A stretch of DNA of 64,000 nucleotides, from IMG/VR virus record IMGVR_UViG_3300049783_001441; one strand, given 5' to 3'. The first letter of the stretch is position 1, and each line of letters begins with the position of its first letter. A model generated the notes under the pieces. The model saw only the letters and a list, made by a program, of their open reading frames with translations. It was not told the origin of the DNA and did not search any database. Source of the DNA: a virus (taxonomy: Duplodnaviria > Heunggongvirae > Uroviricota > Caudoviricetes). Position numbers and translations under genes: made by a program. Positions 895-47,599 of the stretch are shown here, piece after piece.

Positions 895-1896
895 CTAGCC
901 TAGACGCCCGGCTCGCGTACCGAATCGGGCGAATGAACCACTGATACGGGGGTCTGCTGATACGGCGCGGTTGGGGAAAAGTGTTACCCGGACCTTCAGA
1001 TCGGGCTGGATGGCAGCGGCCAATGACGGGTTAGTCGCACCGTCCCCCGCGTCCACCGTGTCTAGTCCGCCGGCCAGCGAGAGGGCGTTACCGTTGCTGA
1101 CCTTGCCGGCCAGCGGGATAACGAGCATCAGGAATGCCGATGTCTCCGGGGCCTTTACGGAGTTGTCATGGAGGTCCACGAGCGCGCCGTGGTCCAACTG
1201 GCGAGGCTTGAGGCCAGCCGAGTTAGCAAGCGACGAACCACCCTTATTGGTGACGGTTGCGATTCCACTGGAGTTACCTACGTGCGACCGGAACAGGCCA
1301 TGGTGCGTCGAAACCAGCGCGCAATGCGTGGGTGAGTTCGACAGAGCGCGGCCTTTGTGCAGGAAGTACTGCTCAATACCGCACCGCTGGATCAGGTTCA
1401 AGTCTGATTGGAGCGGTGCGCCGTCGTCGGCGCTGAACGCGTCAACCGCCATATGCGAGGCTAGGAACTCGGTGCGCCAAGCGGTGTCTCCACCCAGTGC
1501 CTTACGCGAGACGGCGACCCCGTGCTGACCCAACTGGTGATGGATGGACCCGTAGGTTCCGCCAAACAGGTTGGTGTCTGCAAACGGGCGGTCCGGCGTG
1601 GCCAATGCTGTGCCCGCGTAGAACTGCGGGTAGCGGAACAGCGGCACAAACATCGTGGTGGTGTCGGCGTCGTACACGACCGAGCCGGTCGGGAAGTTGT
1701 TGGCAACCTCGATAGCCGTCGCGGCTGCGGCGGTCGTCATAACGCCGCGGGGTAGATTGACGGTGTCGTAGATAGGGTCGGTAGGGCGGACGTTTCGGAT
1801 AAACTCCCCATACGAACTAGCGCTAGCTTGCTGGCATCCAGCAGCGGTGGAGGCAATCGGGGATGCCAGGTTACCGGTGGGGCGGCTTCGGTTCAT
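895..1896 (-). CDS. virion structural protein, paralogue A (333 aa; family not recognised, capsid-like or vertex/fibre-associated)
   Basis: about 50% identical to the 8632-9630 product (DPIYD..PRG, PLFRY, GGT.GSIH, LASHMAVDA.S.DDGA, SPTHCALVS, GLKPR.LD.GALV.LHD.SVKAPET, RVTLFP.R.VS); GGGAG RBS; lies directly upstream of the fibre gene. Confidence 0.55.
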   Translation of the reverse strand: MNRSRPTGNLASPIASTAAGCQQASASSYGEFIRNVRPTDPIYDTVNLPRGVMTTAAAATAIEVANNFPTGSVVYDADTTTMFVPLFRYPQFYAGTALATPDRPFADTNLFGGTYGSIHHQLGQHGVAVSRKALGGDTAWRTEFLASHMAVDAFSADDGAPLQSDLNLIQRCGIEQYFLHKGRALSNSPTHCALVSTHHGLFRSHVGNSSGIATVTNKGGSSLANSAGLKPRQLDHGALVDLHDNSVKAPETSAFLMLVIPLAGKVSNGNALSLAGGLDTVDAGDGATNPSLAAAIQPDLKVRVTLFPNRAVSADPRISGSFARFGTRAGRLG

Positions 1897-7324: not shown

Positions 7325-8470
7325 TTAGAATGCGCTCATAACGGTTCGCCGCCAACCGCCCGTGAACTTAATGTAGAGGTAGTCTACACCGCCGTCCGTC
7401 CCGTATGCGAAACAGCCCACCGAGGCCGTGGACAGAGACGCCGACGTTGCGATGGTGCCGTCAGCGGACAACGCGAGCCGCAGCCCTTGGTGCTCGTCGC
7501 CCGCCTTTTGCTCGATGTCTAGGGTCGCGGTGGCGTTCGTGCTCACCGCCGCGGCGTCCCCGTTGACCTTGTGCAGACCCGTGGTGCCCGCGACGAAGCC
7601 TGCGATGGTGTGGCCTAACGACGCCGTGCCGCTACCCGCGCCCTGGAAGTCGATCCCGAACGCCGCGCCTTGCGCTTCGGCGATGGCACCGCGCCCAACG
7701 GCGGCAGAATGCAACCCCTTAGCCTGCGAGCCGGTGCCGATAGCTACGCAGTCCGTGTCGCTTACCGACGCCCCTACGCCTATGGCCACGTAGTCCACGG
7801 CCCCCGCGCCGATTATGGTTCCAAAGCCAAAATCGTAGTTCCTGGCAGACACCGCCAGAACCGTGGACGCTGCCACGCCGCCCGTCAGTAGCAGGTCGGC
7901 TTGGTCCGTGCCTAGCAGCACTGTCGAGAAGCTCTTTAGCTGGGATGTCAGCGAGGTTACGGTCAGGGTGCCGACATTCGTGGTGCCCGTGTCGGTAACT
8001 GTCAGCAAGGTCGCCGCAGCGCCCACAACAAACTGTGAGTTGTTGACGCCCTCCGTCACCACGAAGCCGCTGGAGTCTCCGACGCCGTGTACGAAACGGC
8101 AGGTGGTGGTCGCAGTCGCCGCCCCGGCTACCGTCCAGTCAGCTTGTTGTAGCTGCGTCCAGTTAGCCCCGTCATACGCCGTGATGTCACCGGTAGTGAT
8201 GCCTGGGATGCTCGTGTCGGTCAGTGCCAGGAACGTGGTAACTCCGGCGCTTGCGCCCCCGGTTGCGATCCACGCCGCCCCATCGTAGCGCCACAAGCTG
8301 TCAGCGCTGGTGGTGTCTAGGAAGGTGTCACCGAGAGCAAGCTCGCGGAAGGTGTAACCAGCAGCGTTCGGGTCGCCGGCCCCTATAAACCACCGTGAAC
8401 CCCTTATCTTCATGGCGAAGATCCCGTCGCCCCCGGACAACTGGATGTTTTTGTACGCTGTGGGTGGCAT
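7325..8470 (-). CDS. Gly/Ala/Thr-rich fibre or spike protein
   Basis: 381 aa, low-complexity G/A/T/V-rich shaft-like sequence with an N-terminal conserved-looking domain (KNIQLSGGDGIFAMKIRGSRWFIGAGDPNAAG); immediately downstream of paralogue B. Confidence 0.55.
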   Translation of the reverse strand: MPPTAYKNIQLSGGDGIFAMKIRGSRWFIGAGDPNAAGYTFRELALGDTFLDTTSADSLWRYDGAAWIATGGASAGVTTFLALTDTSIPGITTGDITAYDGANWTQLQQADWTVAGAATATTTCRFVHGVGDSSGFVVTEGVNNSQFVVGAAATLLTVTDTGTTNVGTLTVTSLTSQLKSFSTVLLGTDQADLLLTGGVAASTVLAVSARNYDFGFGTIIGAGAVDYVAIGVGASVSDTDCVAIGTGSQAKGLHSAAVGRGAIAEAQGAAFGIDFQGAGSGTASLGHTIAGFVAGTTGLHKVNGDAAAVSTNATATLDIEQKAGDEHQGLRLALSADGTIATSASLSTASVGCFAYGTDGGVDYLYIKFTGGWRRTVMSAF

Positions 8471-8631
8471 GTGTGCTCCGCGTGGGTCTGGGGTCTTGCG
8501 CCGCGCAACCCGCGCCGGCAGCGCAAAGGCGCTAGCTGGTGACGGGTAACCCGGAAAAGTAGAGGCATAAAACAGAGCCGCCCCGCCCGAGCAAACGAAC
8601 AGGGCGGCGGTCAGTCAACCAGAGGGTCGAC

Positions 8632-9630
8632 TTACTTCGTGAGCATCATCGGAGCTTGCGGGCCGAACTTGCTACGGGCACCCGGATCAGACGAGGAGAC
8701 GGTCCGGTCTGGGAAGAGTGTAACGCGGATAACGACGCCAGGCTGGACAGCGTTGGCAACGGCGGGGAGGGCGTTCGTGCCGTCATCAATCGAGTCGAAC
8801 CCGGTGACGTTGGCCAGAACCGAGCCGCTGGTTGCCTTGCGGAAGAACGGAATGCGCAGGGTCAAGTATGCGCGGGTCTCTGGGGCCTTGACACTGTCGT
8901 CATGCAGCACAACGAGTGCTCCACGGTCGAGCTTGCGGGGCTTCAGGCCGGACGGGCTCTGGAGGCTTGCACCACCGGAGGTCTTGGCAGCGGCAGCGCC
9001 ATCAGAATCGCCAGCGTGGGCGCGGAAGATTCCTGGGAAGCATGAAACCAGGGCGCAATGCGTCGGGGAGTCTGCAACCGTGCGGCCACCGATCAGGTAA
9101 TCCTGCTCAAGCGTGCCCTTTTGGATGCTGTTAACGTCGGTGAGCAAGAGCGCTCCGTCGTCGTTGGAGTAAGCATCAACGGCCATGTGCGAGGCAAGGT
9201 ACTCTGCGGTCCAGGCTTCGCCGCCGGCAGGGAGGTTGTTGCGTGAAGTAGCAACGCCGCCATGGCCGGTTTCATTGTGGATGGACCCGAAAGTCCCGCC
9301 GTAGATATTGGTCTCGTCCAAGCCGCGAGCCGGTGCAGTCACGCCGCTGGTGTAGCGGTGGTAGCGGAACAAGGGGATGGCGATGAACTTTTCGGTGGCG
9401 TCCCACGAGATCGTGCCGGCGGGGTAACCGTTAGCAGTTTCCATGGCAGCCAACACGACGGCAGACGACAAGTCGCCACGCGGAATGATGATGCTGTCGT
9501 AAATCGGGTCATCGAGGCCAACGCGAGCGATGAAATCGCTGAAAATGTCGCCCTTGTTGAACTGGCCCATCTTGCAGCCGGCTGCGGCCACCGATGCGAT
9601 AGGGGATGAGAGGCGAGTGTTGTCGTTCAT
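8632..9630 (-). CDS. virion structural protein, paralogue B (333 aa from the ATG at 9630)
   Basis: paralogue of 895-1896; start MNDNTRLSSPIASVAAAGC with GGAG RBS; the track ORF extends to 9678. Confidence 0.55.
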   Translation of the reverse strand: MNDNTRLSSPIASVAAAGCKMGQFNKGDIFSDFIARVGLDDPIYDSIIIPRGDLSSAVVLAAMETANGYPAGTISWDATEKFIAIPLFRYHRYTSGVTAPARGLDETNIYGGTFGSIHNETGHGGVATSRNNLPAGGEAWTAEYLASHMAVDAYSNDDGALLLTDVNSIQKGTLEQDYLIGGRTVADSPTHCALVSCFPGIFRAHAGDSDGAAAAKTSGGASLQSPSGLKPRKLDRGALVVLHDDSVKAPETRAYLTLRIPFFRKATSGSVLANVTGFDSIDDGTNALPAVANAVQPGVVIRVTLFPDRTVSSSDPGARSKFGPQAPMMLTK

Positions 9631-9649: not shown

Positions 9650-10114
9650 TTACGCGGGTATAATAGTGGAAATTTCAAGATGAGAGAGGTTGTCTGGGCG
9701 GGTCTGCCCTAAAATGACTTCCGCAAAGAGTACCGGCCAACGCGGCGGCTTTACGGTGAAAGACGCATGTTCACGACTTACCAACTGTGCTGGTATGACT
9801 ACGCCTAAATGGGAGTGCGTTGCGTCGGCGAAAAACCGAACGGACAGCGCTCCCGGTGCGGCCCACTGTACGTCCAGCTTAGCTGCCGGCACCAGTGAGA
9901 ACACCATGCGAAAACCCAAGCCCCAGCTAAGGGGGTCGGCCCACAACAGGCCGCAATGGTTGCGGGCTAATTCCTTAGCCCTGGCCGCCTCTGGTTGGAG
10001 CACCCCATCGGCCACCACTGTAAATATCGGCCCTGGCTTATCCAGTGTGCCCGCCGCAAACCCCGTTCCAGGGGTTGACAGCAGCAGTAGCCTATTTTTC
10101 AGCGGTTCAGCCAT
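9650..10114 (-). CDS. hypothetical protein (154 aa)
   Basis: ORF in the operon upstream of paralogue B; no motif recognised. Confidence 0.45.
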   Translation of the reverse strand: MAEPLKNRLLLLSTPGTGFAAGTLDKPGPIFTVVADGVLQPEAARAKELARNHCGLLWADPLSWGLGFRMVFSLVPAAKLDVQWAAPGALSVRFFADATHSHLGVVIPAQLVSREHASFTVKPPRWPVLFAEVILGQTRPDNLSHLEISTIIPA

Positions 10115-10159: not shown

Positions 10160-10585
10160 TTAGTAGACGCTGGTGCCGTCGTCAAGGGTAACTGCGACCG
10201 TCACTTCGTCGTCTGCGCCGTCAGCGCCTTCAGCGATGGCTCCAGCGTTGGCACGCATTTCGCGGACATACTGAACGGTGGCGGGTGCGGACATTCCGAT
10301 AGCGAAGCCGGCTCCGACTTGCGCGGACGAGTCAACGCCAGCAGCGTTGAGGCCCATTGCGATTCCGGTGCCGACGACGGCTCCGGCGATAACGTCGGTC
10401 AGGACTCGCATCTTGGAGCCTTGCTCGGGAAGCCATTCGCCAGCGAAGCGCTCGATAAGGAACGAAGCGCCAACGCCCGCGCCAACTCCAGCAGCCGCGG
10501 GAGCGGCCATCATGCTGTAATCGATGACGGTGGACAGAGCGCCACCTTGCTGGCTAAGGTCCATGTAGTAGTTATCGGTGTTCAT
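10160..10585 (-). CDS. Gly/Ala-rich small hydrophobic protein
   Basis: 141 aa with several G/A-rich hydrophobic stretches (AAPAAAGVGAGVGASFLI, VIAGAVVGTGIAMGLNAAGV). Confidence 0.45.
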   Translation of the reverse strand: MNTDNYYMDLSQQGGALSTVIDYSMMAAPAAAGVGAGVGASFLIERFAGEWLPEQGSKMRVLTDVIAGAVVGTGIAMGLNAAGVDSSAQVGAGFAIGMSAPATVQYVREMRANAGAIAEGADGADDEVTVAVTLDDGTSVY

Positions 10586-10655
10586 TGGAAACTCCTGCGG
10601 GTTATTTTAGCCAGTTACAGGCCGGTGAGCTACCCCAGCTCGGGTTTTTCTAGGG

Positions 10656-11486
10656 TTACTCGGCAGATTTGCCAAGCGCCTTTAAGGGTGCGGTAACTCC
10701 GGCTAGCGCGCCTTTCAGCTCACTCCCGAAGTAAAACAACACCGCAAGAAACACTACAATTAGGACCACGGCGTAGTACGCCCCGGCTGATTGTATGAAG
10801 ACTTTGAAGATGTTTTTTGACCACTCGCTGAAGCCTCCCTTGGCTTCAATCGCGGTATCTTTTAACGCGGCCAGTGCCCTAGGCACCGTAGTAATCGCCA
10901 CCTCCAGCCCACCGTTTAGGGCTCGCGAGGCAGTTTCATACCAGCCCGAATCTAGCGGCTCTAGCTCGCCGTCCATAATCTCATTCGCCAGCCTAAAGGC
11001 CACCTGGGAGCCGAGGTTGCCAGCCACTCGCGCGGCTCCTCGGATGGTATCTTCGATGTCGCCGGTGCCGTTTGCACGGGGTATCGCGGGCAGGCCAGCC
11101 AGCCCCAGAATGTGGAGTGCGCTGAACTGCTCCCAACCGTAGGTAGCTTCCAGCCGGCCCAGCTTGCGGGCGGACGCGACCTTGAACTGGTCGTTACCGG
11201 TGTCGGCGTAGCCAACGGCGTAGATATACGCGGCGCGGACGTGCGCGCCAAAGTTGGTGCGTGGACGCATCATTACGCGGGCGGTAACATTGGACGGGGT
11301 GCCGTCTGGCACCAGGCTAACGAGCGCCGCCATGCTGGGGTTAGACGAGCCGGCGAGGCGAGTGTCCGAGCAGCCACAACCACCGGAGCTAGCCGCTACA
11401 GAGGCGATGGACGAGGCGAGGTGGGAGTCTTCGCAGGCCGAGCATTTCCCCTTATTCGTATTCCCGCAACCGGATAACTCACTCAT
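10656..11486 (-). CDS. Cys-rich protein with C-terminal transmembrane anchor
   Basis: N-terminus CGNTNKGKCSACEDSH...SSIASVAASSGGCGC shares the IASVAA..GC motif with both virion-protein paralogues; C-terminal helix AYYAVVLIVVFLAVLFYFG. Confidence 0.5.
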   Translation of the reverse strand: MSELSGCGNTNKGKCSACEDSHLASSIASVAASSGGCGCSDTRLAGSSNPSMAALVSLVPDGTPSNVTARVMMRPRTNFGAHVRAAYIYAVGYADTGNDQFKVASARKLGRLEATYGWEQFSALHILGLAGLPAIPRANGTGDIEDTIRGAARVAGNLGSQVAFRLANEIMDGELEPLDSGWYETASRALNGGLEVAITTVPRALAALKDTAIEAKGGFSEWSKNIFKVFIQSAGAYYAVVLIVVFLAVLFYFGSELKGALAGVTAPLKALGKSAE

Positions 11487-11865
11487 AGGTAACCTCTGTG
11501 AGACTTGCGCCCCTGCTGCTAGTCCACTTTAACACTGCTAGTAACCCGAAGGCCACCGCAATGCAGGCCAAAGTCCACACCCACCACGGGGTAGCTTTAA
11601 CTTTTTCGATTCCGGCCTCTGCTCGGTCCAGGCTGTCCACCCAAAAACCGCCCTCTTCCGAGCTTAGCGGATCCGAGCCCCAGTCCGAGTCTGTCGAATC
11701 TGACGGCACTAGGTCCGTGCTCTCTTCGCCAGACTGCGGGCTGGGGTCGGTGTAGCCGTTAGACGGGTCGTCCAAAGCGTCCTGCTTACTAGATAGCTGG
11801 TTTTTTAGCCGGTTTGCTAACCCGGCGGCGCGACCTGCTTGGAACTCTGGGAAGGGCTTACCCAC
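11479..11865 (-). CDS. tail-anchored membrane protein (acidic N-terminal domain)
   Basis: C-terminal helix WWVWTLACIAVAFGLLAVL. Confidence 0.45.
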   Translation of the reverse strand: MGKPFPEFQAGRAAGLANRLKNQLSSKQDALDDPSNGYTDPSPQSGEESTDLVPSDSTDSDWGSDPLSSEEGGFWVDSLDRAEAGIEKVKATPWWVWTLACIAVAFGLLAVLKWTSSRGASLTEVTYE

Positions 11866-11868
11866 GAG

Positions 11869-12390
11869 TTACCTCCGCCCGACGAGAACGAGCATTAACA
11901 CCACGAACAGGGCTGCGAGCGCCGCGGCTCCCAGCCCCACCCACTTCCAAGGGCTCTCTGTCTCCACCAAGTAATTCGCGGCGTCTTTCAGGATCGCCCC
12001 GGCAGACTTTGACTCTGCCGGTGGGGGTGTGTCCACACCGGGCGCGTCGTCGGGTTGGTGCGAAGCGTATTCGCGGAGCATGGCTAGCTCCACGATCTGC
12101 CAGTCAACCATGCGAGCATGGGCGTAGCGGTCGTTCGCCGTGGCCGTTGCCGGCGGGCTAACCTTAATCAAGGTCTGCTCGATGCGGCGGTCAGCTTCGG
12201 CGATAAACGCGCGCAAGCCTTTACTGTCCACTGGCGGGCTCTGGATGGCCGTGAACCAGTTAACCCCGCTAGCTTTGAGCCAGCTTAGGCGAGCGCCTAG
12301 CTGGGTGTAGGAACCGTCCTCGTAGGGGTAGTCTACGCCTTGAACGCCGGTGGGGTTGCTCGTGTGGCTATCGGTGGCATTATGCGGCAT
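11869..12390 (-). CDS. tail-anchored membrane protein
   Basis: C-terminal helix VGLGAAALAALFVVLMLVLVG. Confidence 0.45.
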   Translation of the reverse strand: MPHNATDSHTSNPTGVQGVDYPYEDGSYTQLGARLSWLKASGVNWFTAIQSPPVDSKGLRAFIAEADRRIEQTLIKVSPPATATANDRYAHARMVDWQIVELAMLREYASHQPDDAPGVDTPPPAESKSAGAILKDAANYLVETESPWKWVGLGAAALAALFVVLMLVLVGRR

Positions 12391-13333
12391 TGGACTTGCC
12401 TCCGAGTGTCTTCGCGAGGAGCACCACGAGCACGAGTGCGGCCACGAGAATCAGAGCCCCCGCCGCGTATGCAAAGTAGTTGGGCTTGTCGTCGGTCAAC
12501 CCGAACTCGCCGCCGGCATCGAGTTCGCCGTTGTTACCGGGCTCGTCAGGGCGGTCCATTCTGCGGCCGTCTTCGCGGTCCATTTTGGTGCTGTTACCTT
12601 CGCTGCGATCTTCGAGGGTGTCAGCGCCGGGTACGCCACGGGTCTTGATGCCCTCGGGGTGCTTGATGCGCTGCATGGCCGTAGAGTTTAGCACCTGCAA
12701 CCGCGCCGCTTCACCGTGGCCCGTGGTGATCACGCCACGCGTGCGGTAGGCCGCCACTGGGATCACGCCGCCGGTTAGTCCCGGCATCGGGACATCGGCC
12801 CAACTCTCTTTGAATGGGGTCAGCATGAAGCCCGCGCCGTACTTGCGGAGTAGCTGCCCTAGCTCGCGGTAACCTGCCCGCCACGCCTCTACTTCGGGCA
12901 GCGTGCGTGCAGCGGCACGGCGAGCCCTACCGGTCAGGGGATCAGCCGGGTTGGCCGATGGCCCGCTAGGGTTGAGCAATCGGCGCACCTTTTCAGGCAT
13001 CCGGCCCGGCCTGGCAACGACGTGTTTGATTACCTGCTTCCAAGTCTGGCCCAGAAACGGCTTAATCAGAGCTTGCAGGCGGATAGAGTCGCGGCCTACT
13101 TCGGCTGTCAGGTTCGCCATGCGCAGATAATAGTACGGGCGCATACCCGTAGACAGCCACAGGTTTTTGTGCGCTTGCTTTTTGGTGAGTACCGCCCGAA
13201 CGACCTCTTGCTGTGCGGCCTTTAGGAAGGCTTCGCGGTCGCTAGTACCCCACGATGGCCACAACTGGGCCGCGTCTAGCGCTAGTGTGGGTAAGTCTCG
13301 GGAAAGCCCCGCCGAAATGTCCGTGTGGCTCAT
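12380..13333 (-). CDS. tail-anchored membrane protein (317 aa)
   Basis: C-terminal helix FAYAAGALILVAALVLVVLLA. Confidence 0.5.
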   Translation of the reverse strand: MSHTDISAGLSRDLPTLALDAAQLWPSWGTSDREAFLKAAQQEVVRAVLTKKQAHKNLWLSTGMRPYYYLRMANLTAEVGRDSIRLQALIKPFLGQTWKQVIKHVVARPGRMPEKVRRLLNPSGPSANPADPLTGRARRAAARTLPEVEAWRAGYRELGQLLRKYGAGFMLTPFKESWADVPMPGLTGGVIPVAAYRTRGVITTGHGEAARLQVLNSTAMQRIKHPEGIKTRGVPGADTLEDRSEGNSTKMDREDGRRMDRPDEPGNNGELDAGGEFGLTDDKPNYFAYAAGALILVAALVLVVLLAKTLGGKSNAA

Positions 13334-13659
13334 GGCGAACCCCTTCGCGGTAACATGGCAATGATGAGCACAACAAGTGCCAGGATAACCACCACGACAA
13401 CCGATAGGCCGGCATAGTTCGTTGGGTTTAGCTGGCTAAGGGCCAGCTCTAAGTGTTGCTCCACGCGGAGCAACATCGCATACGTTTCGGCATCGCCAGC
13501 TCGGCGGGCACGCAACTTTTGCCGCTGCACCTCGGCGAGCTTGGCCGGGATACTGGCGCTGGTCTGTAGGTACGCGGATACGCCGGGGGCTAACGCCGCC
13601 AGGGTATCCGAGTCCAAACGCCCGACAATGTCGAGCGCAGCGCCAGTAACGTCAGCCAT
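13330..13659 (-). CDS. tail-anchored membrane protein
   Basis: C-terminal helix LSVVVVVILALVVLIIAML. Confidence 0.45.
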   Translation of the reverse strand: MADVTGAALDIVGRLDSDTLAALAPGVSAYLQTSASIPAKLAEVQRQKLRARRAGDAETYAMLLRVEQHLELALSQLNPTNYAGLSVVVVVILALVVLIIAMLPRRGSP

Positions 13660-13662
13660 GGC

Positions 13663-14106
13663 CTAGCCGCGAGCCTTGCTGATGCCGAGCGCAATGAGCA
13701 CACCCAACAGCACAAACACCACGAGACCAATCACGCGCCCTGGGGTTACCAGGGGTGCGGGAGGGGTGACTAGGGGGTTGTTACTGGTGGTGTCGTCAAG
13801 TTCGTCAAACACGTCCTCGCCAGCCGAACCCTTACCTTGAGCGGCGCGGATAAGTTCAGCGGCGGTCGGTCCGAGTGCGTCCACGAGGTCCGCAGCGAGA
13901 CGAGCAGCTTCCGCTGGGCTGATGCCGGAATCACCGGAGCCGCCGCCGGAATCTGGGGTGTCGCCACCGGTCTTTCTGCCGTTTTCGAGTGGGGCCTTAC
14001 CCGCGAGGCGAGCTTCGCTAAGCTGTGGTTGGCCGCCATCTTCTTCGAGCAACAGACGTTCGTATTCGGCCTCGTCGGGCCAGTCTTCTAGGGGTGGCAT
14101 AGGCAA
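13663..14106 (-). CDS. tail-anchored membrane protein
   Basis: C-terminal helix VIGLVVFVLLGVLIALGI. Confidence 0.45.
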   Translation of the reverse strand: MPMPPLEDWPDEAEYERLLLEEDGGQPQLSEARLAGKAPLENGRKTGGDTPDSGGGSGDSGISPAEAARLAADLVDALGPTAAELIRAAQGKGSAGEDVFDELDDTTSNNPLVTPPAPLVTPGRVIGLVVFVLLGVLIALGISKARG

Positions 14107-14124
14107 CTCCTCGGGCTTTACCCG

Positions 14125-14904
14125 TTAGGTTTGAGTCATTGTAACTGGTTTCCCGCCAAAATAGGCGGCAACAGCTAGTAGTAGCATGGCGGCAACGAGA
14201 AAAAACAAGTTACCACCTTTGGGTGCCCGACCGGCTCCGGCCAGCCACCCGTGGTTTCGGGCCGACGAGGTTACCACCCGGCTGGAGGTAGACCCGAAGG
14301 GCTCCCAGTCGGCGGTAGCGTCGGCTTCGCGGAATTGAATACTGCACGACACGTTACCTCGCGCGTCGGCGGCGCACTCTGGAGGCGTGCCGATGTCCAC
14401 AAAAATGTGGGTCGGGCTACCCGGCATATTTACCCCGCTGTCCGAGGTCCAGCGCTGCCCGTTGGGGTGGAACCCTGCGAGCATGAAGCGGTACGGAAGG
14501 CCGATAGAAGCCGCCGCAGCCGCCAGGAATACCGAGAAGTCGTCACAGTCCCCAAGCTGGTGCTCTATGGTGTCTAGCGGGTGCTGGATGTACTCTCCCG
14601 CCTCCAACACGTAGTAAAGGTTCTCCACGGCCCACTGGTGGATGGCACGGGCTTGGTTCACGTAGTCTCTGGGTGCTACTCTGGCCTTGCGGAGAATGCG
14701 GGTAACCACGAACACGCGCAACTCGTTGGCCTCCGCGGCCTCGTCGGAAACTTTGCGCAGACTGCCCAGCCGCTCGGACCACGACATTCGGTCCCACGAA
14801 GAGCGGGAGACTTGCGGGCCACGAATCGTGGGTACCGAAATCTTACGGGGCTTGCGCGGGCGACCTAGGCGGGTCTCGTCCATCACGGGTAAGGGGATCA
14901 GCAT
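14125..14904 (-). CDS. transglutaminase-like cysteine protease, C-terminally membrane-anchored
   Basis: Cys box GDCDDFSVFLAAAAASIGLPYRFMLAGF (cf. G.C.DFA.....L.RA.GIPAR.V.GY), His SPTHIFVDIG, then Asp; C-terminal helix LFFLVAAMLLLAVAAYFG. Confidence 0.6.
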   Translation of the reverse strand: MLIPLPVMDETRLGRPRKPRKISVPTIRGPQVSRSSWDRMSWSERLGSLRKVSDEAAEANELRVFVVTRILRKARVAPRDYVNQARAIHQWAVENLYYVLEAGEYIQHPLDTIEHQLGDCDDFSVFLAAAAASIGLPYRFMLAGFHPNGQRWTSDSGVNMPGSPTHIFVDIGTPPECAADARGNVSCSIQFREADATADWEPFGSTSSRVVTSSARNHGWLAGAGRAPKGGNLFFLVAAMLLLAVAAYFGGKPVTMTQT

Positions 14905-14907
14905 TGG

Positions 14908-15660
14908 TTACTCCGGGGCCGCTGCGAGGCGCAACGCCGTGTAGATGGCCACGATCAAAAGCACGACCATGAGGGCGGCCTTGCCGCCTACCCTTAACCG
15001 TTTGGCGTTGGCGAGGGACAGCATCGGTCGGCCCCCGGCAGCGCTGCTGCCTTTGTCGTGCGCCAGGGAGCCCGCAGCGGCAATCGCAGCGGCCTCGGTG
15101 GCGTTGTTCACCTCTGACGACTCGCGCGCCGCCCACGCCCCTAGAAACGACGTGTAAGCCGCTGTGCGGATACGGATGTGCGCGGCATTCCAGGCGTGCC
15201 GTTCGATGCGCCGCCCGAACAGTAACGCCAGATCCAGCACGCTCATATCCGACTCGCCTGCTGTCTTGACCGTGTCAGCCCAGCGGCCCGCGTCTAGCTC
15301 TTGCTCGATGAGGGCGCGGACGTTGGTTACCGGGTCAAGCCTCGGGTCTGCCGGGTGCGCGTATGCGCGACCTTCGCGGAATACCGGACCCGGCGGGTTC
15401 AGTATGCTGCCCGCGCCGTCTGGCACCTTCAGTTGGTGCAGCCCAACACTGAACTCCCGTGTACGCCCGTCTGGCCACTTCGTGTACGCAACAGCGTCGT
15501 TACGAAGGCGGCTTTCGGCCCACGCATTCGCCGCCGCAGCTAGGGTAAGTGCCGGAGTCGTGCCGTACTGGCCGTAAACCCGGATGAGCGTGGCTAGGTT
15601 CTGCCGCTGCTCTGCATTCAGGCTGGCAGCGGGTGTGAAGGCGGCTAGGGGTAGGCTCAC
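14908..15660 (-). CDS. tail-anchored membrane protein
   Basis: probable GTG start at 15658-15660 overlapping the upstream stop (GTGA); the track ORF extends to 15846, which is an implausible 190-nt overlap; C-terminal helix ALMVVLLIVAIYTALRLA. Confidence 0.45.
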   Translation of the reverse strand: MSLPLAAFTPAASLNAEQRQNLATLIRVYGQYGTTPALTLAAAANAWAESRLRNDAVAYTKWPDGRTREFSVGLHQLKVPDGAGSILNPPGPVFREGRAYAHPADPRLDPVTNVRALIEQELDAGRWADTVKTAGESDMSVLDLALLFGRRIERHAWNAAHIRIRTAAYTSFLGAWAARESSEVNNATEAAAIAAAGSLAHDKGSSAAGGRPMLSLANAKRLRVGGKAALMVVLLIVAIYTALRLAAAPE

Positions 15661-16286
15661 TTGGACCCCCGGAACTTGGACCACGCGAACACCGCTGCGA
15701 TTGTGACCAGCAGCACCAAGCCGAACGCTACGGAGCCTTTGGCTGCGACCTTGGCTGCGTCTCGCACGGGTTGGACGTAACTCGCGGCCTTGTCGGCAAC
15801 CCCGCTGATCCACGGCACAATGCCCTCGGACTTTGAGGGGTACCACGGTACCAAAGGTCCGCTCGCAGGCTGGTACTGGAACCGGCGGTTGTTGCCGGAA
15901 GCGCGGTGACTAACGTGGACGTGCCCGCCCTTGCTCGCGTGGTACAGGATTACCTGACCTACCGGAATATCCGGGTTCAGGTACAGGTACTCCATAAGGT
16001 CGCGCGACGTGCCTTCCACCGGCTTGACATCCGCAGCTTCGCCCTTGATGTGCTGGGAGTTATTGTTGCTCCCCACGCACGCACTGTTGTTGATTACGGC
16101 AGTTCGGAAGCCGCTTATGCGCTGTAGCCCGCCGAACTGCACCCACAACGGGTCCAGCACGTTGATAGCCAGCGCCATGAGCGCCGCCCTCTGGGTGGGG
16201 CTAGGCGTGTTGGGGTTACCCGCAGCGGCGGCGCAACCACTACGGGTAAGCGCCTCTTCGGACAGATACAGGCTAAGCATGGCCAC
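15657..16286 (-). CDS. LAS-family (peptidase M15-like) zinc metallopeptidase, C-terminally membrane-anchored
   Basis: SQHIKGEAADV matches S-x-H-x-x-G-x-A-x-D; second metal motif GGHVHVSH; C-terminal helix VAFGLVLLVTIAAVFAW. Confidence 0.65.
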   Translation of the reverse strand: MAMLSLYLSEEALTRSGCAAAAGNPNTPSPTQRAALMALAINVLDPLWVQFGGLQRISGFRTAVINNSACVGSNNNSQHIKGEAADVKPVEGTSRDLMEYLYLNPDIPVGQVILYHASKGGHVHVSHRASGNNRRFQYQPASGPLVPWYPSKSEGIVPWISGVADKAASYVQPVRDAAKVAAKGSVAFGLVLLVTIAAVFAWSKFRGSK

Positions 16287-16289
16287 GGG

Positions 16290-16892
16290 TTACCTCAACT
16301 TCGCGTAGGCGCGGGGTACGGTCATTGCGAGCAAGGCAAGGCTGATACTGACCAGCGCAATCAGCAGGTACAGACCCAACATACTCACCCGGCGTTGGTT
16401 GCGCTGTCCGGCTGTAATGCGGGTCTCGCGGGCTTTCTCGACCAACAGAGCGCCTTCGCGGGTAATGTCGCCCTGGAGGATAGCGGTTGCAGCCGCCTCC
16501 TTTTCGCGAGCGCCACCACCGTTTTTGGTGCGCATCTTCTCGATAGACTGCGCCAATTCTGCGGGGGTATCGTCAGAGTACTTGGCGTACACGCGGCGGT
16601 ACCGCTTGCTGAAGCCTTGCTCTTCCAGTTGGTTACGGATCAGCACCTTGGTCGGGTCCGTGTTGGCGGCCCCGGCTCCGATAGCACTACCTACGATCGA
16701 GACAACCGCGCCCGCAGCCGCCAAGGCGACATTGATCGGGGGTAACGGCAGCATTACGCCGATCGTGGTTAGTGCTGAACCCACCGCAACCGTGCCGCCG
16801 CCTATCGCCGTCTGCGCTGCGATACCTTTCTCTACCCGCTCAACTTCCGTTGGCGTTGGCGTGTGGAGTACGGGTGGCTGGGACGGCAGCAC
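16290..16892 (-). CDS. tail-anchored membrane protein
   Basis: hydrophobic ALAAAGAVVSIVGSAIGAGAA plus C-terminal helix LGLYLLIALVSISLALLAM. Confidence 0.45.
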   Translation of the reverse strand: MLPSQPPVLHTPTPTEVERVEKGIAAQTAIGGGTVAVGSALTTIGVMLPLPPINVALAAAGAVVSIVGSAIGAGAANTDPTKVLIRNQLEEQGFSKRYRRVYAKYSDDTPAELAQSIEKMRTKNGGGAREKEAAATAILQGDITREGALLVEKARETRITAGQRNQRRVSMLGLYLLIALVSISLALLAMTVPRAYAKLR

Positions 16893-17308
16893 TACGCCAC
16901 CTCAAGCGCCGCGTCCGGCCCCGGAGCCGGGAACAGCGCGACCAGCACGACTAGCGCAATGAGGGCGAAGATAGCGGCAACTCCGCCGATCCATGCCCAC
17001 TTGTTTTCGCCACGGAAAACGTCTAGGTAACTGGGTGGGTTCAGCAGCGCGTTTTCGGCGTCTTCGTTCGCTTGTAGCGCCAACTCTAGGTCCACGGCGG
17101 CTTGATCGAGGTCGCCTTCGTCGTTGGCGCAATCGTCGAGACGCCCTTCCCACTTGGCGTACCACGCGCTTAGCTTCTTATTGCGGTACGACTTCTTACC
17201 GTCCGCTTTGGCAGCCATGTAACCATCATACAGCCGTTGGGCCTTGGCGCACGAGGTCTTTTCAGGCGTGGCCGCTAGGCGGCTCGGGCTGGGTTTAGAT
17301 GGTCGCAT
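16892..17308 (-). CDS. tail-anchored membrane protein
   Basis: C-terminal helix WIGGVAAIFALIALVVLVALF. Confidence 0.45.
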   Translation of the reverse strand: MRPSKPSPSRLAATPEKTSCAKAQRLYDGYMAAKADGKKSYRNKKLSAWYAKWEGRLDDCANDEGDLDQAAVDLELALQANEDAENALLNPPSYLDVFRGENKWAWIGGVAAIFALIALVVLVALFPAPGPDAALEVA

Positions 17309-17411
17309 TGTAACTCCGGTGGGGCAACCTATCGCAATAAACCCCCGGAACCAACTGGTTCCGAGGGTTTAGGCGTGACTACGCTTGAGTTACCTCGCGC
17401 GTGGCCTTCGG

Positions 17412-18629
17412 CTAGAAGTCGAGGTCAGCGACCGTAATCTGCGAGGTCTTGGTGGTCTTGCGGGGCTTGCGGGCCTTCGGCTTGGTGGTCTTTGCCTTCG
17501 GGGCGGCCTTTGCCTTTGCCTTTGCCTTTGCCTTTGCCTTCGGGGCGGCCTTTGCCTTCGGGGCGGCCTTCGGTGCGGCCTTTGCCTTGGCGCGGGCGGC
17601 GTCACGGGCAGCGTTGAGCTTCAGCCACTTGGCGGCTACTGGCTTGATCTTCGCGGCTTCGGCAGTGCTGGGCTTGTGCAGTTGCGACTGGCTGGAGACA
17701 GCCTTGACGCGGCCTTGCAGGCTTGCAGTAGCGCGGACAGTGAGCTTGCCCTTGCTAGCGCCGCTCGTGCCGCGGCCCACGTAGAAGCCAGTTACCCAAC
17801 CGGCACCAGTCTCGTAGCGCACGGGCTGGCCTAGCGACGGGACTGCGGTGAGCGCCTTACCGGAATCGGTGGCGGCGGTCTTCTTTGCGGCGGGAGCTTT
17901 GCGCTTCGCGGTAGCTTTGCGCGTAGCCGGAGCGGCGGTCTTCTTAGCGGCAGTCTTCTTTTTGGCCGGAGCTTTGCGCTTTGCCGGAGCGGTCTTCTTT
18001 GCAGCGGTCTTCTTTGCCTTGGTATCGCGCTCGCTAGTCGAGCCCGGCCCGCTGCGTGGGCGTCCGCCTGCCGGTGCCTTGGCGGTCTTGCGCTTCGCCG
18101 CGGGAGCTTTGCTCGTCGGAACCAGCTTCATGCCGCGGATAGCGGCGAGCGAGCGCAGCTCTGCGAGGGAGAGTTCCTTGCAGTTGGCCGCGGCAGCAGC
18201 GGTAACCGGAGCACCGAGTGCGAGCGACCATGACGAACCGCTCTTGTTGGCCTTGCTGCCGGCGAACTTGTAGTTCGCGAGGCAACGGGCCTGGGTGGCT
18301 GCGCCGGTAGCCTTGACGGCGATCTCGGCGACGTTACCCTTGCGGATAGACACTTTCACCGGGATGCTGGACAGCTTGCTGCCGGCACCGAGGCGGAGCT
18401 TAGCGGTGTACCAGACGGTAGCGCGCTTGGCGTTACCCTTGGTTTCCTTGCGGCGGTTGTTGATTGCGGCCTGAATCTTGGCGGACTCGGCAGCGGCGGG
18501 TGGGTAGCGTTTAAGCAGTGCTTTGGTAGCAACGATCATGGGAGGAACCTCCGTCCAAACGGACATAGTGTGCGGGGCTCCAAACAAAGCACCCGGAGAC
18601 AGGGTAACCCCTGGTCCGGGTAACGGCAA
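17412..18629 (-). CDS. Lys/Ala/Pro-rich histone-H1-like basic DNA-binding protein
   Basis: 405 aa; long KAKAAPKAAPKAKAAPKAKAKAKAK and KKTAAKKTAPAKRKAPAKKK tracts encoded by GCCTTT-type simple repeats (about 17500-17600). Confidence 0.55.
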   Translation of the reverse strand: MPLPGPGVTLSPGALFGAPHTMSVWTEVPPMIVATKALLKRYPPAAAESAKIQAAINNRRKETKGNAKRATVWYTAKLRLGAGSKLSSIPVKVSIRKGNVAEIAVKATGAATQARCLANYKFAGSKANKSGSSWSLALGAPVTAAAAANCKELSLAELRSLAAIRGMKLVPTSKAPAAKRKTAKAPAGGRPRSGPGSTSERDTKAKKTAAKKTAPAKRKAPAKKKTAAKKTAAPATRKATAKRKAPAAKKTAATDSGKALTAVPSLGQPVRYETGAGWVTGFYVGRGTSGASKGKLTVRATASLQGRVKAVSSQSQLHKPSTAEAAKIKPVAAKWLKLNAARDAARAKAKAAPKAAPKAKAAPKAKAKAKAKAKAAPKAKTTKPKARKPRKTTKTSQITVADLDF

Positions 18630-46691: not shown

Positions 46692-47480
46692 ATGCCCACC
46701 GTCAAGCTGACCGCCGCCCTGGCTAGACTAGCCCCTTACGCCGCCATGCTGGGCGTTGACCCGGCCACGCTGCACACAGTGGTCCAAGTGGAGTCTGGTA
46801 ACATCCCGTGGGTTATCGATGGCTACCCGCTGACCCGCCTGGAGTTACACCACGTCTGGTCCCGGTCCCCGGTGGCCCACCAACCGCTGCTCGATGACTT
46901 CATTCGGGTGGACGGCAAGGTCCACTACCTGCCGAGGGGCAAGGCACGCACGGGCCGCTACAAAAACGGACCCTGGCAAGGGCACCGCTACTGTCTGCGG
47001 ACGCATGAAGTCCCTGGAGGTTACCCGATTCTACGCGAGGCTACGCACCTAGACGGTGACTGGTCCTGGGTGTCTCTACACGACGTGAAGTGGTCAACTG
47101 CACAGCACGACCTCCAGATACACTGCATGGAGCGGCTGGTGTCCATTGCCCACATGCAAGACGACCACGAGGTTGCGCGGAAAGCGGAAGCCGCCGTGTG
47201 GGAATCAGCTAGCTACGGTGGACTGCAAGTCATGGGTTTCAACTTCCGTGATGGCGACCATGCGAGCGCCGCCGATATGTTCGGCGACTACGAGACAGAG
47301 CCAGGGCAGCTAATTAGTTTCGTCCAGCGGGTACTATCCAAACCCCACGAATTGAGTGCCCTCCGAAGGGGTAACTTCCTCACCTTCGCGGCGTCTTACA
47401 ACGGGCCCGGACAGCCCGAGGTGTACGCCGCGCGCATGACCCGGTTACTCCGAGAAACGCGCCGCGAGCTGCGGGGTTAG
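46692..47480 (+). CDS. endolysin, DUF3380-type N-acetylmuramidase-like
   Basis: AAMLGVDPATLHTVVQVESGNIPWVIDGYPLTRLELHHVWSRS matches the I.AV.EVES.G.GF...GRP.ILFERH.F.R.T signature of the phage muramidase family. Confidence 0.5.
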   Translation: MPTVKLTAALARLAPYAAMLGVDPATLHTVVQVESGNIPWVIDGYPLTRLELHHVWSRSPVAHQPLLDDFIRVDGKVHYLPRGKARTGRYKNGPWQGHRYCLRTHEVPGGYPILREATHLDGDWSWVSLHDVKWSTAQHDLQIHCMERLVSIAHMQDDHEVARKAEAAVWESASYGGLQVMGFNFRDGDHASAADMFGDYETEPGQLISFVQRVLSKPHELSALRRGNFLTFAASYNGPGQPEVYAARMTRLLRETRRELRG

Positions 47481-47599
47481 CGGGTCTAGTGGACTTGCGT
47501 GGTGTAACGGTTTAATAATGGTGTATCGAGCCGCCTCCGGGCGGTCAGACTCACAGCGGTTCAGGCTATCGCCAAGACCCCCACACTGGAATACCACCC

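What the first reader, a model, noticed from the sequence alone, without database searches (positions are those of the whole stretch)
10656..17308. Uninterrupted array of 11 genes whose products all end in a single C-terminal transmembrane helix
Every ORF from 10656 to 17308 (minus strand, tightly overlapping) encodes a soluble N-terminal domain followed by one hydrophobic helix within the last ~30 residues. That is a tail-anchored topology. Two carry recognisable enzymatic domains (transglutaminase-like protease, LAS/M15 peptidase). The array sits directly upstream of the virion-protein/fibre genes. In known phages this many consecutive tail-anchored proteins beside structural genes is the hallmark of internal-membrane viruses (the PRD1-like membrane protein set). 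It is not expected in a tailed-phage morphogenesis operon.
Basis: partly seen in the sequence, partly recalled or inferred. Interest (0 to 1): 0.8.

Follow-up and report, generated by a model that had tools for sequence, protein, structure and literature searches.

The report
Conserved operon of tail-anchored phage membrane proteins
Eleven neighbouring genes in an uncultured, roughly 99-kb phage-like genome from glacier ice each encode a protein held in a membrane by one helix at its very end, three of them cell-wall-cutting enzymes; the block recurs in a few distant relatives and most likely helps the virus breach the cell envelope, possibly as part of a lipid-containing particle.

Summary
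All 11 minus-strand ORFs between 10656 and 17308 end in a strongly hydrophobic 19-28-residue segment, with 0-19 residues after it. They are tightly packed and unrelated to each other. The same block recurs in two other metagenomic lineages, with its downstream end also seen on a third, short contig. Its order is: basic protein, tail-anchored array, multi-pass membrane protein, ~150-aa protein, ~330-aa beta-rich protein, terminator, fibre-like protein. The element has a circular map of about 98.6 kb with phage-like replication genes. No terminase, portal, capsid or tail gene was recognisable, and neither was a double-jelly-roll capsid protein or packaging ATPase. PRD1, Bam35c, PM2 and P23-77 do not have tail-anchored runs, so the "PRD1 hallmark" claim fails as stated. 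PRD1 and Bam35c do anchor a lysin by a C-proximal helix, and so do some tailed-phage endolysins. Best reading (about 0.4): a late, structure-linked module of membrane-anchored envelope-breaching proteins, probably carried in a virus lipid membrane. Main rival (about 0.27): a lysis or egress module.

The parts
17412..18629 (-). Basic Lys/Ala-rich protein (405 aa), immediately upstream of the array. Probably nucleic-acid- or wall-binding.
   Evidence: Sequence read. A K/R/A/S-rich basic protein sits in the same position, directly before the A-like gene, in L008 (4019-4666) and L009 (2506-3240). No Pfam, PHROG or NCBIfam hit.
16892..17308 (-). A: tail-anchored protein, 138 aa.
   Evidence: Hydropathy maximum 2.97; by the charge-bounded core, 7 residues follow the helix. 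Weak homologue in L009, 125 aa, 26% identity, E 3e-5.
16290..16892 (-). B: 200 aa, with a Gly/Ala-rich hydrophobic region (residues 35-76) plus a C-terminal helix.
   Evidence: Homologues in L009 (218 aa, 31% identity, E 5e-16) and L008 (225 aa, E 8e-9) have the same two hydrophobic regions.
15657..16286 (-). C: tail-anchored M15 (LAS-type) peptidase, 209 aa.
   Evidence: Peptidase_M15_3 at 1.2e-6. phrog_894 endolysin at 2.9e-12. SxHxxGxAxD at residue 77 and HxH at 122. C-terminal helix followed by KFRGSK.
14908..15660 (-). D: tail-anchored lysozyme/lytic-transglycosylase-like protein, 250 aa.
   Evidence: Homologues L008 245 aa (38% identity) and L009 241 aa (35%) carry PF18013 Phage_lysozyme2 in precomputed Pfam. 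Invariant AES (residue 48) and GL[FH]Q (residue 73) motifs.
14125..14904 (-). E: tail-anchored transglutaminase-like cysteine peptidase, 259 aa.
   Evidence: Transglut_core at 6.8e-8. 41-46% identical homologues in L008 and L009 with Cys120 and His166 invariant. PDB 3isr putative cysteine protease, E 0.0048.
13663..14100 (-). F: tail-anchored, acidic N-part, 145 aa.
   Evidence: Hydropathy maximum 2.95, tail KARG, net charge of the N-domain -15.
13330..13659 (-). G: tail-anchored, 109 aa.
   Evidence: Hydropathy maximum 3.51. Homologues L008 115 aa and L009 110 aa.
12380..13333 (-). H: tail-anchored, 317 aa, no relatives found.
   Evidence: The only hit among 5.8 billion clusters was itself.
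11869..12390 (-). I: tail-anchored, 173 aa.
   Evidence: Hydropathy maximum 2.76, ends in RR.
11479..11865 (-). J: tail-anchored, 128 aa.
   Evidence: Hydropathy maximum 2.16; 11 residues after the segment in the threshold scan, 16 after the charge-bounded core.
10656..11486 (-). K: tail-anchored, 276 aa, Cys-rich N-terminus, long hydrophobic end.
   Evidence: N-domain homologues L008 197 aa and L009 204 aa. In L008, L009 and L011 the equivalent protein ends in a conserved YVLIR(T/M)Y(V/I)P motif.
10160..10585 (-). Multi-pass Gly/Ala-rich membrane protein, 141 aa. A possible holin-like or channel component.
   Evidence: Weak phrog_126 holin/anti-holin hit, E 0.0056. Positional equivalents with two hydrophobic segments in L008 (147 aa) and L009 (131 aa); L011 has a 137-aa protein in the same position.
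9650..10114 (-). Soluble beta-rich protein, 154 aa.
   Evidence: Positional and weak sequence equivalents in L008, L009 and L011, 18-24% identity. AF2 pLDDT 48; only generic beta-sandwich matches, Z up to 5.4.
8632..9630 (-). Conserved 332-aa beta-rich protein, last gene of the unit. Candidate major structural or vertex protein.
   Evidence: The exhaustive search gave only 4 relatives: one is the window's own paralogue, the others lie in L008, L009/L010 and L011. AF2 pLDDT 49, pTM 0.57, mostly beta. Weak jelly-roll-type matches, Z up to 4.1.
8577..8608 (-). Intrinsic terminator: 13-bp GC-rich stem followed by a U-tract.
   Evidence: Strong GC-rich hairpins with U-rich tails also follow the paralogue and the L008, L009 and L011 homologues; z-scores against shuffles range from -1.69 (L008) to -4.58 (L011).
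7325..8470 (-). Fibre-like protein, 381 aa.
   Evidence: The first ~85 residues are 36% identical to the N-terminus of the 2862-aa giant fibre-like protein left of the window. Residues 67-144 are 37-40% identical to the L008 424-aa and L009 413-aa proteins.
895..1896 (-). Paralogue (333 aa, 48% identity) of the 332-aa protein. It precedes the 2862-aa fibre-like gene.
46692..48073 (+). Context: a separate candidate lysis cassette, made of a muramidase without a membrane helix (46692-47480) and a 157-aa protein with one helix (47600-48073).
   Evidence: PF11860 Muramidase at 9.4e-19. Hydrophobic segment at residues 83-115.

Best explanation
The 11 genes are the core of a conserved late operon in a previously undescribed lineage of phage-like elements. 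Each product is made without a signal peptide. Each is most likely fixed in a lipid bilayer by a single, very hydrophobic C-terminal helix closed by a short basic stop (R/K). Three of them (M15 peptidase, lysozyme/transglycosylase-like, transglutaminase-like peptidase) would together cut glycan and peptide bonds of peptidoglycan. The other eight are distinct non-enzymatic partners. The operon is preceded by a basic protein. It continues into a multi-pass membrane protein, a ~150-aa and a ~330-aa beta-rich protein, a terminator and then a fibre gene, and a conventional lysis cassette lies elsewhere. I therefore infer that the array is a structure-linked, membrane-embedded machine for breaching the cell envelope. 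It is most likely carried in a virus-associated lipid membrane and used at entry, in the way PRD1 P7 and PM2 P7 are. SHOWN: the ORFs, the hydrophobic ends and basic tails, the enzyme motifs, the operon structure, conservation and synteny in other lineages, and the lack of any recognisable tailed-phage or PRD1-like hallmark gene. INFERRED: membrane insertion and topology, presence in the particle, a role at entry, and the existence of a virion membrane.
For: Tail-anchor architecture is present in all 11 ORFs, and the clustering has P about 4e-11. The 32 such proteins in three lineages have helix cores of 19-34 residues. Their tails sum to +53 net charge, against +10 in the 15 residues upstream. 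The 11 are not paralogues of each other. The module and its order are conserved in L008 (GC 0.70) and L009/L010 (GC 0.50), and its downstream end recurs in L011 (GC 0.57). Six of the eleven have detectable homologues there. A basic protein precedes the A-like gene in all three lineages. A strong terminator follows every ~330-aa gene, which defines one transcription unit from the array to that gene. The fibre-like neighbours share N-termini, and the [330-aa + fibre] cassette is duplicated. Catalytic motifs are intact. Separate soluble endolysin plus small membrane-protein cassettes exist: window 46692-48073 and L010 CHAP plus a 97-aa two-helix protein. Membrane-embedded virion lysins are documented for PRD1, PM2 and phi6 (PMC5380687). 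PRD1 P7 and Bam35c ORF26 have C-proximal helices. Helices this hydrophobic (hydropathy up to 3.5) are hard to carry in a lipid-free particle (inference).
Against: There is no direct evidence that a particle exists or contains lipid. No capsid, packaging or tail gene of any kind was recognised in about 95 of about 98.6 kb (and the precomputed Pfam). The models of the 332-aa and 154-aa proteins are of low confidence, and their fold matches are non-specific. Tailed phages do make endolysins with a C-terminal helix and basic tail that act in lysis (PMC7143992; PMC8943055 and PMC8879335). In L008 a PG_binding_1 protein lies in the same operon as the A-, B- and D-like genes. Known membrane-containing phages do not show tail-anchored runs.
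Confidence: 0.4

Rival explanations
1. The array is a lysis or egress module. The three enzymes would be self-exporting or membrane-tethered endolysins of the M4Lys/Enc34/AP1 type (N-terminal catalytic domain, C-terminal helix, basic tail). The eight other tail-anchored proteins and the multi-pass protein would be holin-like, spanin-like or regulatory partners that act in the infected cell's own membrane. None would be in the particle.
For: The architecture is the same as M4Lys, whose helix is essential for Sec- and holin-independent lysis and whose basic tail predicts an N-out topology (PMC7143992). Enc34 and AP1 endolysins are also C-terminally anchored. Basic tails follow nearly every helix here. 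The 141-aa multi-pass protein right after the array gives a weak holin hit, E 0.0056. In L008 a PG_binding_1 protein follows the D-like gene.
Against: Eleven distinct anchored proteins, eight without an enzyme domain, far exceed any described lysis cassette. Conventional soluble endolysin plus small membrane-protein pairs lie elsewhere in the window and in L010. The array is co-transcribed with the conserved beta-rich proteins next to the fibre gene and follows a basic protein in all lineages.
Confidence: 0.27
2. The proteins are ejected 'pilot' proteins of a lipid-free, probably tailed, particle. They would be packed in the capsid or tail, expelled at infection, and would insert their C-terminal helices into the target cell's membrane to form a DNA conduit while the enzymes open the wall, in the manner of T7 gp14-16.
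For: The enzymes plus membrane-active segments sit next to fibre genes. Basic tails could be drawn through an inside-negative membrane (inference). The D family matches a Pfam lysozyme family that, from memory, is described from phage tail proteins.
Against: The helices are extremely hydrophobic (hydropathy 2.2-3.5, Val/Leu/Ile-rich), so they should insert into the producer cell's membrane on synthesis. No portal, tape measure, tail tube or terminase was recognised.
Confidence: 0.1
3. The element is a true member of the PRD1-like viruses (Tectiviridae/Kalamavirales), and this is its internal-membrane protein set.
For: There is a cluster of single-pass membrane proteins in a late operon with anchored lysins, as in PRD1 and Bam35c. 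The fold hints for the 332-aa protein are jelly-roll-like but weak.
Against: The polymerase is family A, with an integrase and a circular ~98.6-kb map. No FtsK/HerA-type P-loop protein is present in the window, and the flanks show only helicase-type ATPase families in precomputed Pfam. No sequence match to any of 50,697 phage records was found for E or the 332-aa protein. The tail-anchored topology is absent from PRD1, Bam35c, PM2 and P23-77.
Confidence: 0.03
4. The array has a non-virion function in a plasmid-like element, for example a cell-envelope remodelling, exclusion or contact system expressed in the carrier cell.
For: No capsid or packaging genes were recognised. The map is circular and carries an integrase, HU and many replication genes.
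Against: The gene content is otherwise phage-like: phrog_200 at 5.8e-48, phrog_894, phrog_62 and PF26211 Phage_phiTE_072. The fibre-like proteins have shared N-terminal anchors. No relaxase or type IV secretion ATPase turned up in the Pfam scans or in the precomputed Pfam of the flanks. Proteins exported by conjugation systems are, from general knowledge, anchored N-terminally.
Confidence: 0.1
5. The C-terminal segments are sortase- or exosortase-type sorting signals (motif + helix + basic tail) that are cleaved off after export.
For: A helix followed by a basic tail at the extreme C-terminus matches the general layout of such signals.
Against: There are no N-terminal signal peptides. No conserved motif precedes the helices. 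No NCBIfam sorting-signal model matched at E up to 0.05.
Confidence: 0.02

Closest known systems
Virion-membrane lysins and membrane-protein clusters of Tectiviridae (PRD1 P7/P14; Bam35c ORF26) and Corticoviridae (PM2 P7)
   Same: These are also late-operon clusters of single-pass membrane proteins near capsid and spike genes. They also include a peptidoglycan-cutting enzyme with an N-terminal catalytic domain and a C-proximal membrane helix. PRD1 P7 has its helix at 213-243 of 265 residues, and Bam35c ORF26 at 169-203 of 250. Membrane-associated virion lysins are reviewed in PMC5380687.
   Different: There, most membrane proteins are 27-120 aa with N-terminal or central helices. Scored the same way, those phages have 0-2 tail-anchored ORFs and no run. 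Their genomes are 10-17 kb; the tectiviruses (PRD1, Bam35c) use a terminal protein and a protein-primed family-B polymerase. All four annotate a small packaging ATPase and capsid proteins. Here there are 11 larger tail-anchored proteins, three enzymes, a ~98.6-kb circular map and a family-A polymerase, and neither a jelly-roll capsid protein nor a packaging ATPase was recognised.
Tailed-phage endolysins with a C-terminal transmembrane domain (Salmonella phage BSPM4 M4Lys; Hafnia phage Enc34; Acidovorax phage AP1 LysAP)
   Same: They have an N-terminal peptidoglycan hydrolase, no signal peptide, and one C-terminal helix followed by basic residues (PMC7143992; PMC8943055 and PMC8879335).
   Different: Those are single genes within a lysis cassette. 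Here three different enzymes sit in a run with eight non-enzymatic tail-anchored proteins. The run is co-transcribed with structural-looking genes, and a separate soluble lysin cassette exists.
Multi-protein entry complexes of enveloped large DNA viruses (vaccinia entry-fusion complex of 11 small membrane proteins)
   Same: About eleven different small proteins are each embedded in a virus membrane and act together at entry (PMC10664964 and PMC6235832). This is a functional analogy only.
   Different: There is no sequence or demonstrated structural relation. The host is eukaryotic and no cell-wall enzymes are involved. The resemblance is a lead, not a test.
Bacterial tail-anchored proteins in general (for example the T6SS subunit TssL, inserted by YidC)
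   Same: They have a single C-terminal helix, no signal peptide and post-translational insertion (PMC3426401).
   Different: Cellular examples are scattered single genes. An operon of 11, conserved across lineages, has not been described to my knowledge.

Membership tests
Tail-anchored membrane proteins (architectural class) | One hydrophobic helix within about the last 30-50 residues, with no other membrane segment | tested here: met
   Ten of the 11 have a single segment, with hydropathy maxima of 2.16-3.51, ending 0-14 residues from the C-terminus in the threshold scan. ORF B has one further hydrophobic region at residues 35-76.
Tail-anchored membrane proteins (architectural class) | No N-terminal signal peptide | tested here: met
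   No N-terminal hydrophobic segment was found in any of the 11 by the hydropathy scan. No dedicated signal-peptide predictor was available.
Tail-anchored membrane proteins (architectural class) | Actual membrane integration and N-in/C-out orientation | not testable with these tools
   This needs reporter fusions or fractionation. The basic tails leave the orientation ambiguous.
PRD1-like internal-membrane viruses (Tectiviridae/Kalamavirales) | Double-jelly-roll major capsid protein | tested here: inconclusive
   No Pfam, PHROG, NCBIfam or PDB-sequence hit. The AF2 model of the 332-aa candidate has pLDDT 49, with only weak jelly-roll-type matches, Z up to 4.1.
PRD1-like internal-membrane viruses (Tectiviridae/Kalamavirales) | FtsK/HerA-type packaging ATPase next to the capsid genes | tested here: not met
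   The only credible P-loop match in the window is a MoxR-type AAA_5 protein at 22363-23400. The flanks hold only helicases. Caveat: about 3.9 kb of the circle was not seen.
PRD1-like internal-membrane viruses (Tectiviridae/Kalamavirales) | Linear ~15-kb genome with a terminal protein and protein-primed family-B polymerase | tested here: not met
   DNA_pol_A at 3667-5058 and an integrase at 5058-5870. One JGI record joins both sides of the window into a map of about 98.6 kb.
PRD1-like internal-membrane viruses (Tectiviridae/Kalamavirales) | Cluster of small membrane proteins and a membrane-anchored lysin in the late operon | tested here: met
   This is met in a looser sense, because the topology differs from PRD1, Bam35c and PM2.
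C-terminal-TMD endolysins (M4Lys / Enc34 / LysAP type) | N-terminal peptidoglycan hydrolase plus a single C-terminal helix with a basic tail | tested here: met
   ORFs C and E fit fully; D has the anchor, but its own C-terminal residue is acidic (its L008/L009 homologues have basic tails). The comparison is with PMC7143992. No sequence homology to those proteins was tested.
C-terminal-TMD endolysins (M4Lys / Enc34 / LysAP type) | The gene lies in the phage's lysis cassette and causes lysis on its own | tested here: inconclusive
   A multi-pass protein with a weak holin hit follows the array, but separate soluble-lysin cassettes exist. Lysis activity is not testable here.
Tailed phages (Caudoviricetes) | Large terminase, portal, HK97-fold capsid protein and tail proteins | tested here: inconclusive
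   None was recognised by Pfam, PHROGs or NCBIfam among the ORFs tested across about 95 of 98.6 kb (and precomputed Pfam). Most ORFs have no relatives, so failing to detect these genes does not show they are absent.
Sortase/exosortase C-terminal sorting signals | Signature motif before the helix, plus an N-terminal signal peptide | tested here: not met
   No shared motif, no signal peptide and no NCBIfam sorting-domain hit.

The most novel reading that the evidence does not exclude
These elements are a new lineage of large (~100 kb) lipid-containing dsDNA bacterial viruses, unrelated to tectiviruses and corticoviruses. Their virion membrane proteome would be built almost wholly from tail-anchored proteins, including a three-enzyme wall-cutting set. 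Their capsid and packaging proteins would belong to no recognised family.
Probability: 0.28. Interest if true: 0.88.

Novelty: new variant of a known kind. Interest (0 to 1): 0.66.

Why it matters
If the array sits in a virion membrane, it would extend lipid-containing bacterial viruses to a genome size and gene repertoire not seen in cultured phages. It would also give a defined set of about 11 proteins for studying how a membrane-bearing particle crosses a cell wall. If it is instead a lysis module, it would be by far the most elaborate set of C-terminally anchored lysis proteins known, and would bear on how enzymes without signal peptides reach the wall. Either way, it is a rare case in bacteria of a conserved operon devoted to tail-anchored proteins, which raises the question of how they are inserted. 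It also flags a phage-like lineage whose structural genes escape all current profile libraries.

Tried and rejected
DNA and protein searches that found nothing:
- blastn of 10001-18000 against phages and plasmids: no match.
- tblastn of E and of the 332-aa protein against 50,697 phage records: no match.
- IMG/VR scans with E, the 332-aa protein and alignments A1, A2 and A5: no relatives.
- Word-index searches with H, A1 and the 369-aa protein: only the element's own proteins, plus the already-known L011 relative P0004 for A1.

Searches that led away from the module:
- Genome and metagenome scans with A2 found only distant transglutaminase genes without arrays. I used these as a background control, where about 3% of ORFs are tail-anchored.
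- One exception was a 1.1-kb contig in a Saccharibacteria MAG, 40% identical to E and tail-anchored. That MAG has no other module gene.
- The 332-aa family was not found in the 401 genomes searched from the phylum of that MAG.

Structure and profile searches:
- ESM Atlas look-ups of the 332-, 369- and 696-aa proteins: no usable hit.
- PDB sequence-profile searches with A1 and A3: nothing. A4 and A5: nothing significant.
- Foldseek and VIA searches with the two low-confidence models gave only generic beta-sandwich or jelly-roll rows. I treat these as uninformative about virion type.
- Complex prediction of the 332-aa protein with the fibre N-terminus: no verdict.

Other dead ends:
- No RNA holder is listed for the stretch.
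- No whole genome is held for the window, and the records behind the loci are not searchable.
- My greedy ORF caller fails on the 70% GC contig L008, so I used the collection's gene calls there.

Explanations considered and rejected: chance or wrong-frame ORFs, recent tandem duplication (the 11 share no detectable similarity), and sortase-type signals.

Full report
1. THE OBSERVATION

The minus strand between 10656 and 17308 carries 11 back-to-back ORFs. The assembly collection's own gene calls give the same set, with the fourth ORF at 250 aa, starting at 15660. A Kyte-Doolittle scan (19-residue window) finds one strongly hydrophobic segment in every product. The maxima are 2.16-3.51, and at threshold 1.6 the segment ends 0-14 residues from the C-terminus. 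None has an N-terminal hydrophobic segment. Only the second ORF has a further hydrophobic, Gly/Ala-rich stretch, at residues 35-76.

Neighbouring genes are separated by -11 to +24 nt. In a crude gene call of the whole 64-kb window, only one other ORF has this architecture. The probability that 11 of 12 such ORFs among 86 form one run is about 4e-11. The 11 proteins share no detectable similarity with each other. The stretch is held entire by four ice-metagenome runs, although these may include the source sample.

2. ENZYMES

- ORF C (15657-16286) matches Peptidase_M15_3 (1.2e-6) and phrog_894 endolysin (2.9e-12). It keeps the SxHxxGxAxD and HxH motifs.
- ORF E (14125-14904) matches Transglut_core (6.8e-8). 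Its Cys120 and His166 are invariant among homologues.
- ORF D (14908-15660) has no hit of its own. Its homologues in related loci carry PF18013 Phage_lysozyme2, and the family has invariant AES and GL[FH]Q motifs, as in lysozyme/transglycosylase-type enzymes.

So three different wall-cutting activities are each fixed by a C-terminal helix.

3. THE ELEMENT

The window is a metagenomic contig from ice. Walking out from both ends showed one JGI record that joins the right of the window to the left of the window in a single orientation. This gives a circular or permuted map of about 98.6 kb. The longest contig on record is 98,770 bp. About 3.9 kb was not seen.

Recognised genes:
- a family-A polymerase split into exonuclease and polymerase ORFs, an integrase and a methyltransferase;
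- RecD-like and ResIII helicases, DUF3987 and HU;
- a 2112-aa phrog_62 helicase-type giant;
- a MoxR-type AAA_5 ATPase, followed by a protein whose C-terminal part I read by eye as VWA-like;
- an SPFH protein (phrog_200, 5.8e-48);
- a patatin and a muramidase.

No terminase, portal, capsid, tail, tape-measure or baseplate family was recognised by Pfam, PHROGs or NCBIfam among the ORFs tested. The only credible P-loop protein in the window is the AAA_5 ATPase.

4. RELATIVES

An exhaustive profile-free search of 1.84 billion representatives with the 332-aa protein just downstream of the array gave only four hits. One is the window's own paralogue at 895-1896, 48% identical. The other three lie on contigs L008 (GC 0.70), L009/L010 (GC 0.50) and L011 (GC 0.57).

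L008 and L009 carry the same module:
- a transglutaminase-like tail-anchored protein, followed by 6-7 more tail-anchored proteins;
- then a multi-pass membrane protein, a ~150-aa protein, the ~330-aa protein and a 413-424-aa fibre-like protein;
- and a divergent operon made of a basic protein, an A-like tail-anchored protein, a B-like protein and a D-like tail-anchored lysozyme.

BLAST links A, B, D, E, G and K, the 332-aa protein and the N-terminal part of the fibre-like protein between lineages. Across the 32 tail-anchored proteins of the three lineages, the helix cores are 19-34 residues long. The tails after them sum to +53 net charge, against +10 in the 15 residues before them.

Distant transglutaminase loci from other genomes and metagenomes lack such arrays. 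No cultured phage has a match to E or to the 332-aa protein. The module is therefore real, conserved and very rare.

5. OPERON LOGIC

A 13-bp GC-rich hairpin with a U-tract lies at 8608-8577, just after the 332-aa gene. Strong GC-rich hairpins with U-rich tails also follow the paralogue and the L008, L009 and L011 homologues. The array, the multi-pass protein and the ~150- and ~330-aa proteins thus form one unit that ends at the ~330-aa gene.

The next gene (381 aa) shares its first ~85 residues with a 2862-aa giant fibre-like protein that follows the paralogue. There are therefore two [~330 aa + fibre] cassettes.

A basic Lys/Ala-rich protein precedes the A-like gene in all three lineages. 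A soluble muramidase plus a one-helix protein (46692-48073) in the window, and a CHAP lysin plus a two-helix 97-aa protein in L010, look like the conventional lysis cassettes.

I scored PRD1, Bam35c, PM2 and P23-77 with the same rule. They have 0-2 tail-anchored ORFs and no run. Their membrane proteins are mostly very small, with N-terminal or central helices. Lambda and a Microbacterium phage also show no run. So the array is a hallmark neither of known membrane-containing phages nor of tailed ones.

What does carry over is looser. PRD1 P7 and Bam35c ORF26 are lysins with a C-proximal helix, and membrane-embedded virion lysins are established for PRD1, PM2 and phi6 (PMC5380687). On the other side, tailed phages also make endolysins with a C-terminal helix and basic tail that drive lysis (PMC7143992).

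7. STRUCTURE ATTEMPTS

AF2 with the shallow family alignments gave low-confidence, beta-rich models for the 332-aa protein (pLDDT 49, pTM 0.57) and the 154-aa protein (pLDDT 48). Fold searches returned only weak beta-sandwich or jelly-roll-type rows, Z up to 4.1 and 5.4. These cannot tell a capsid or vertex protein from a tail-tip or carbohydrate-binding domain.

8. INTERPRETATION

The proteins are almost certainly integral membrane proteins. Helices this hydrophobic should enter the producer cell's membrane. Their conserved co-transcription with structure-like genes, the basic protein upstream and the separate lysis cassettes favour a structure-linked, membrane-embedded envelope-breaching machine carried in a virus lipid membrane (confidence about 0.4). 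A lysis or egress module built around C-terminally anchored lysins is the main rival (about 0.27). Ejected pilot proteins of a lipid-free particle (about 0.1) and a non-virion function (about 0.1) remain possible. Strict membership of the PRD1-like viruses is disfavoured (about 0.03). Sortase-type signals are rejected. Membrane insertion, topology, presence in particles and the existence of a virion membrane are all inferred, not shown.

9. VERDICT

I rate the novelty as a new variant of a known kind: phage membrane-protein modules with anchored lysins. There is a real chance (about 0.28) that it marks a new lineage of large lipid-containing phages.

Noticed in passing
window 895-1896 and 8632-9630; L014 10946-19534: There are two paralogous cassettes. 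Each has a ~330-aa beta-rich protein (48% identical to the other), then a hairpin with a U-rich tail, then a fibre-like protein. The two fibre-like proteins (381 aa and 2862 aa) share only their first ~85 residues. The giant one has faint CBM_5_12 and weak TSP3 repeat hits.
   Followed up: partly
window 8577-8608; L008 10029-10147; L009 7870-7954; L011 2221-2311: A strong GC-rich hairpin with a U-rich tail directly follows every member of the ~330-aa gene family, in lineages with 50-70% GC. This fits a highly expressed last gene of an operon.
   Followed up: yes
window 20690-23400: A MoxR-type AAA_5 ATPase (22363-23400) is followed by a 558-aa protein with a ~250-residue Asp/Glu/Gly low-complexity region. 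Its C-terminal part looks VWA-like by eye (LIDISGS). Next comes a 689-aa highly acidic protein (18670-20739), just upstream of the basic protein and the array.
   Followed up: no
window 17385-17834 (+) opposite 17412-18629 (-): The Lys/Ala-rich repeats of the basic protein create a spurious open frame on the other strand (GLCLCLCL...). That frame should not be annotated as a gene.
   Followed up: no
whole element (window plus L014, L016, L039, L040): The genome map closes into a circle of about 98.6 kb, and almost every ORF lacks relatives. No capsid, portal, terminase or tail family is recognisable anywhere in the ~95 kb seen.
   Followed up: partly
L039 10713-17051: A 2112-aa protein matches phrog_62 'DNA helicase' (1.1e-34). 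From memory, it resembles the giant helicase/methylase anti-restriction proteins of P1-like phages. It follows a 696-aa and a 369-aa ORF that have no relatives.
   Followed up: no
window 2210-5870: The family-A DNA polymerase is split into a separate exonuclease-like ORF (2210-3670) and polymerase ORF (3667-5058). A tyrosine integrase (5058-5870) is translationally coupled right behind them.
   Followed up: no
window 31562-32359 and 48961-49908; L009 9196-10086: There are further membrane- or lipid-related genes: an SPFH/Band-7 protein with an N-terminal helix (phrog_200, 5.8e-48) and a patatin-like phospholipase. In L009 a patatin gene sits directly after the fibre-like gene of the module.
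   Followed up: no
L018 (= L048), 1.1-kb contig of a Candidatus Saccharibacteria MAG: This contig encodes a tail-anchored homologue of ORF E (40% identity; profile E 1.3e-64). It is the only hint of a host, but binning of so short a contig is unreliable and no other module gene is in that MAG.
   Followed up: partly
window 40668-40967: This is the only other tail-anchored ORF in the window (99 aa), isolated on the plus strand.
   Followed up: no
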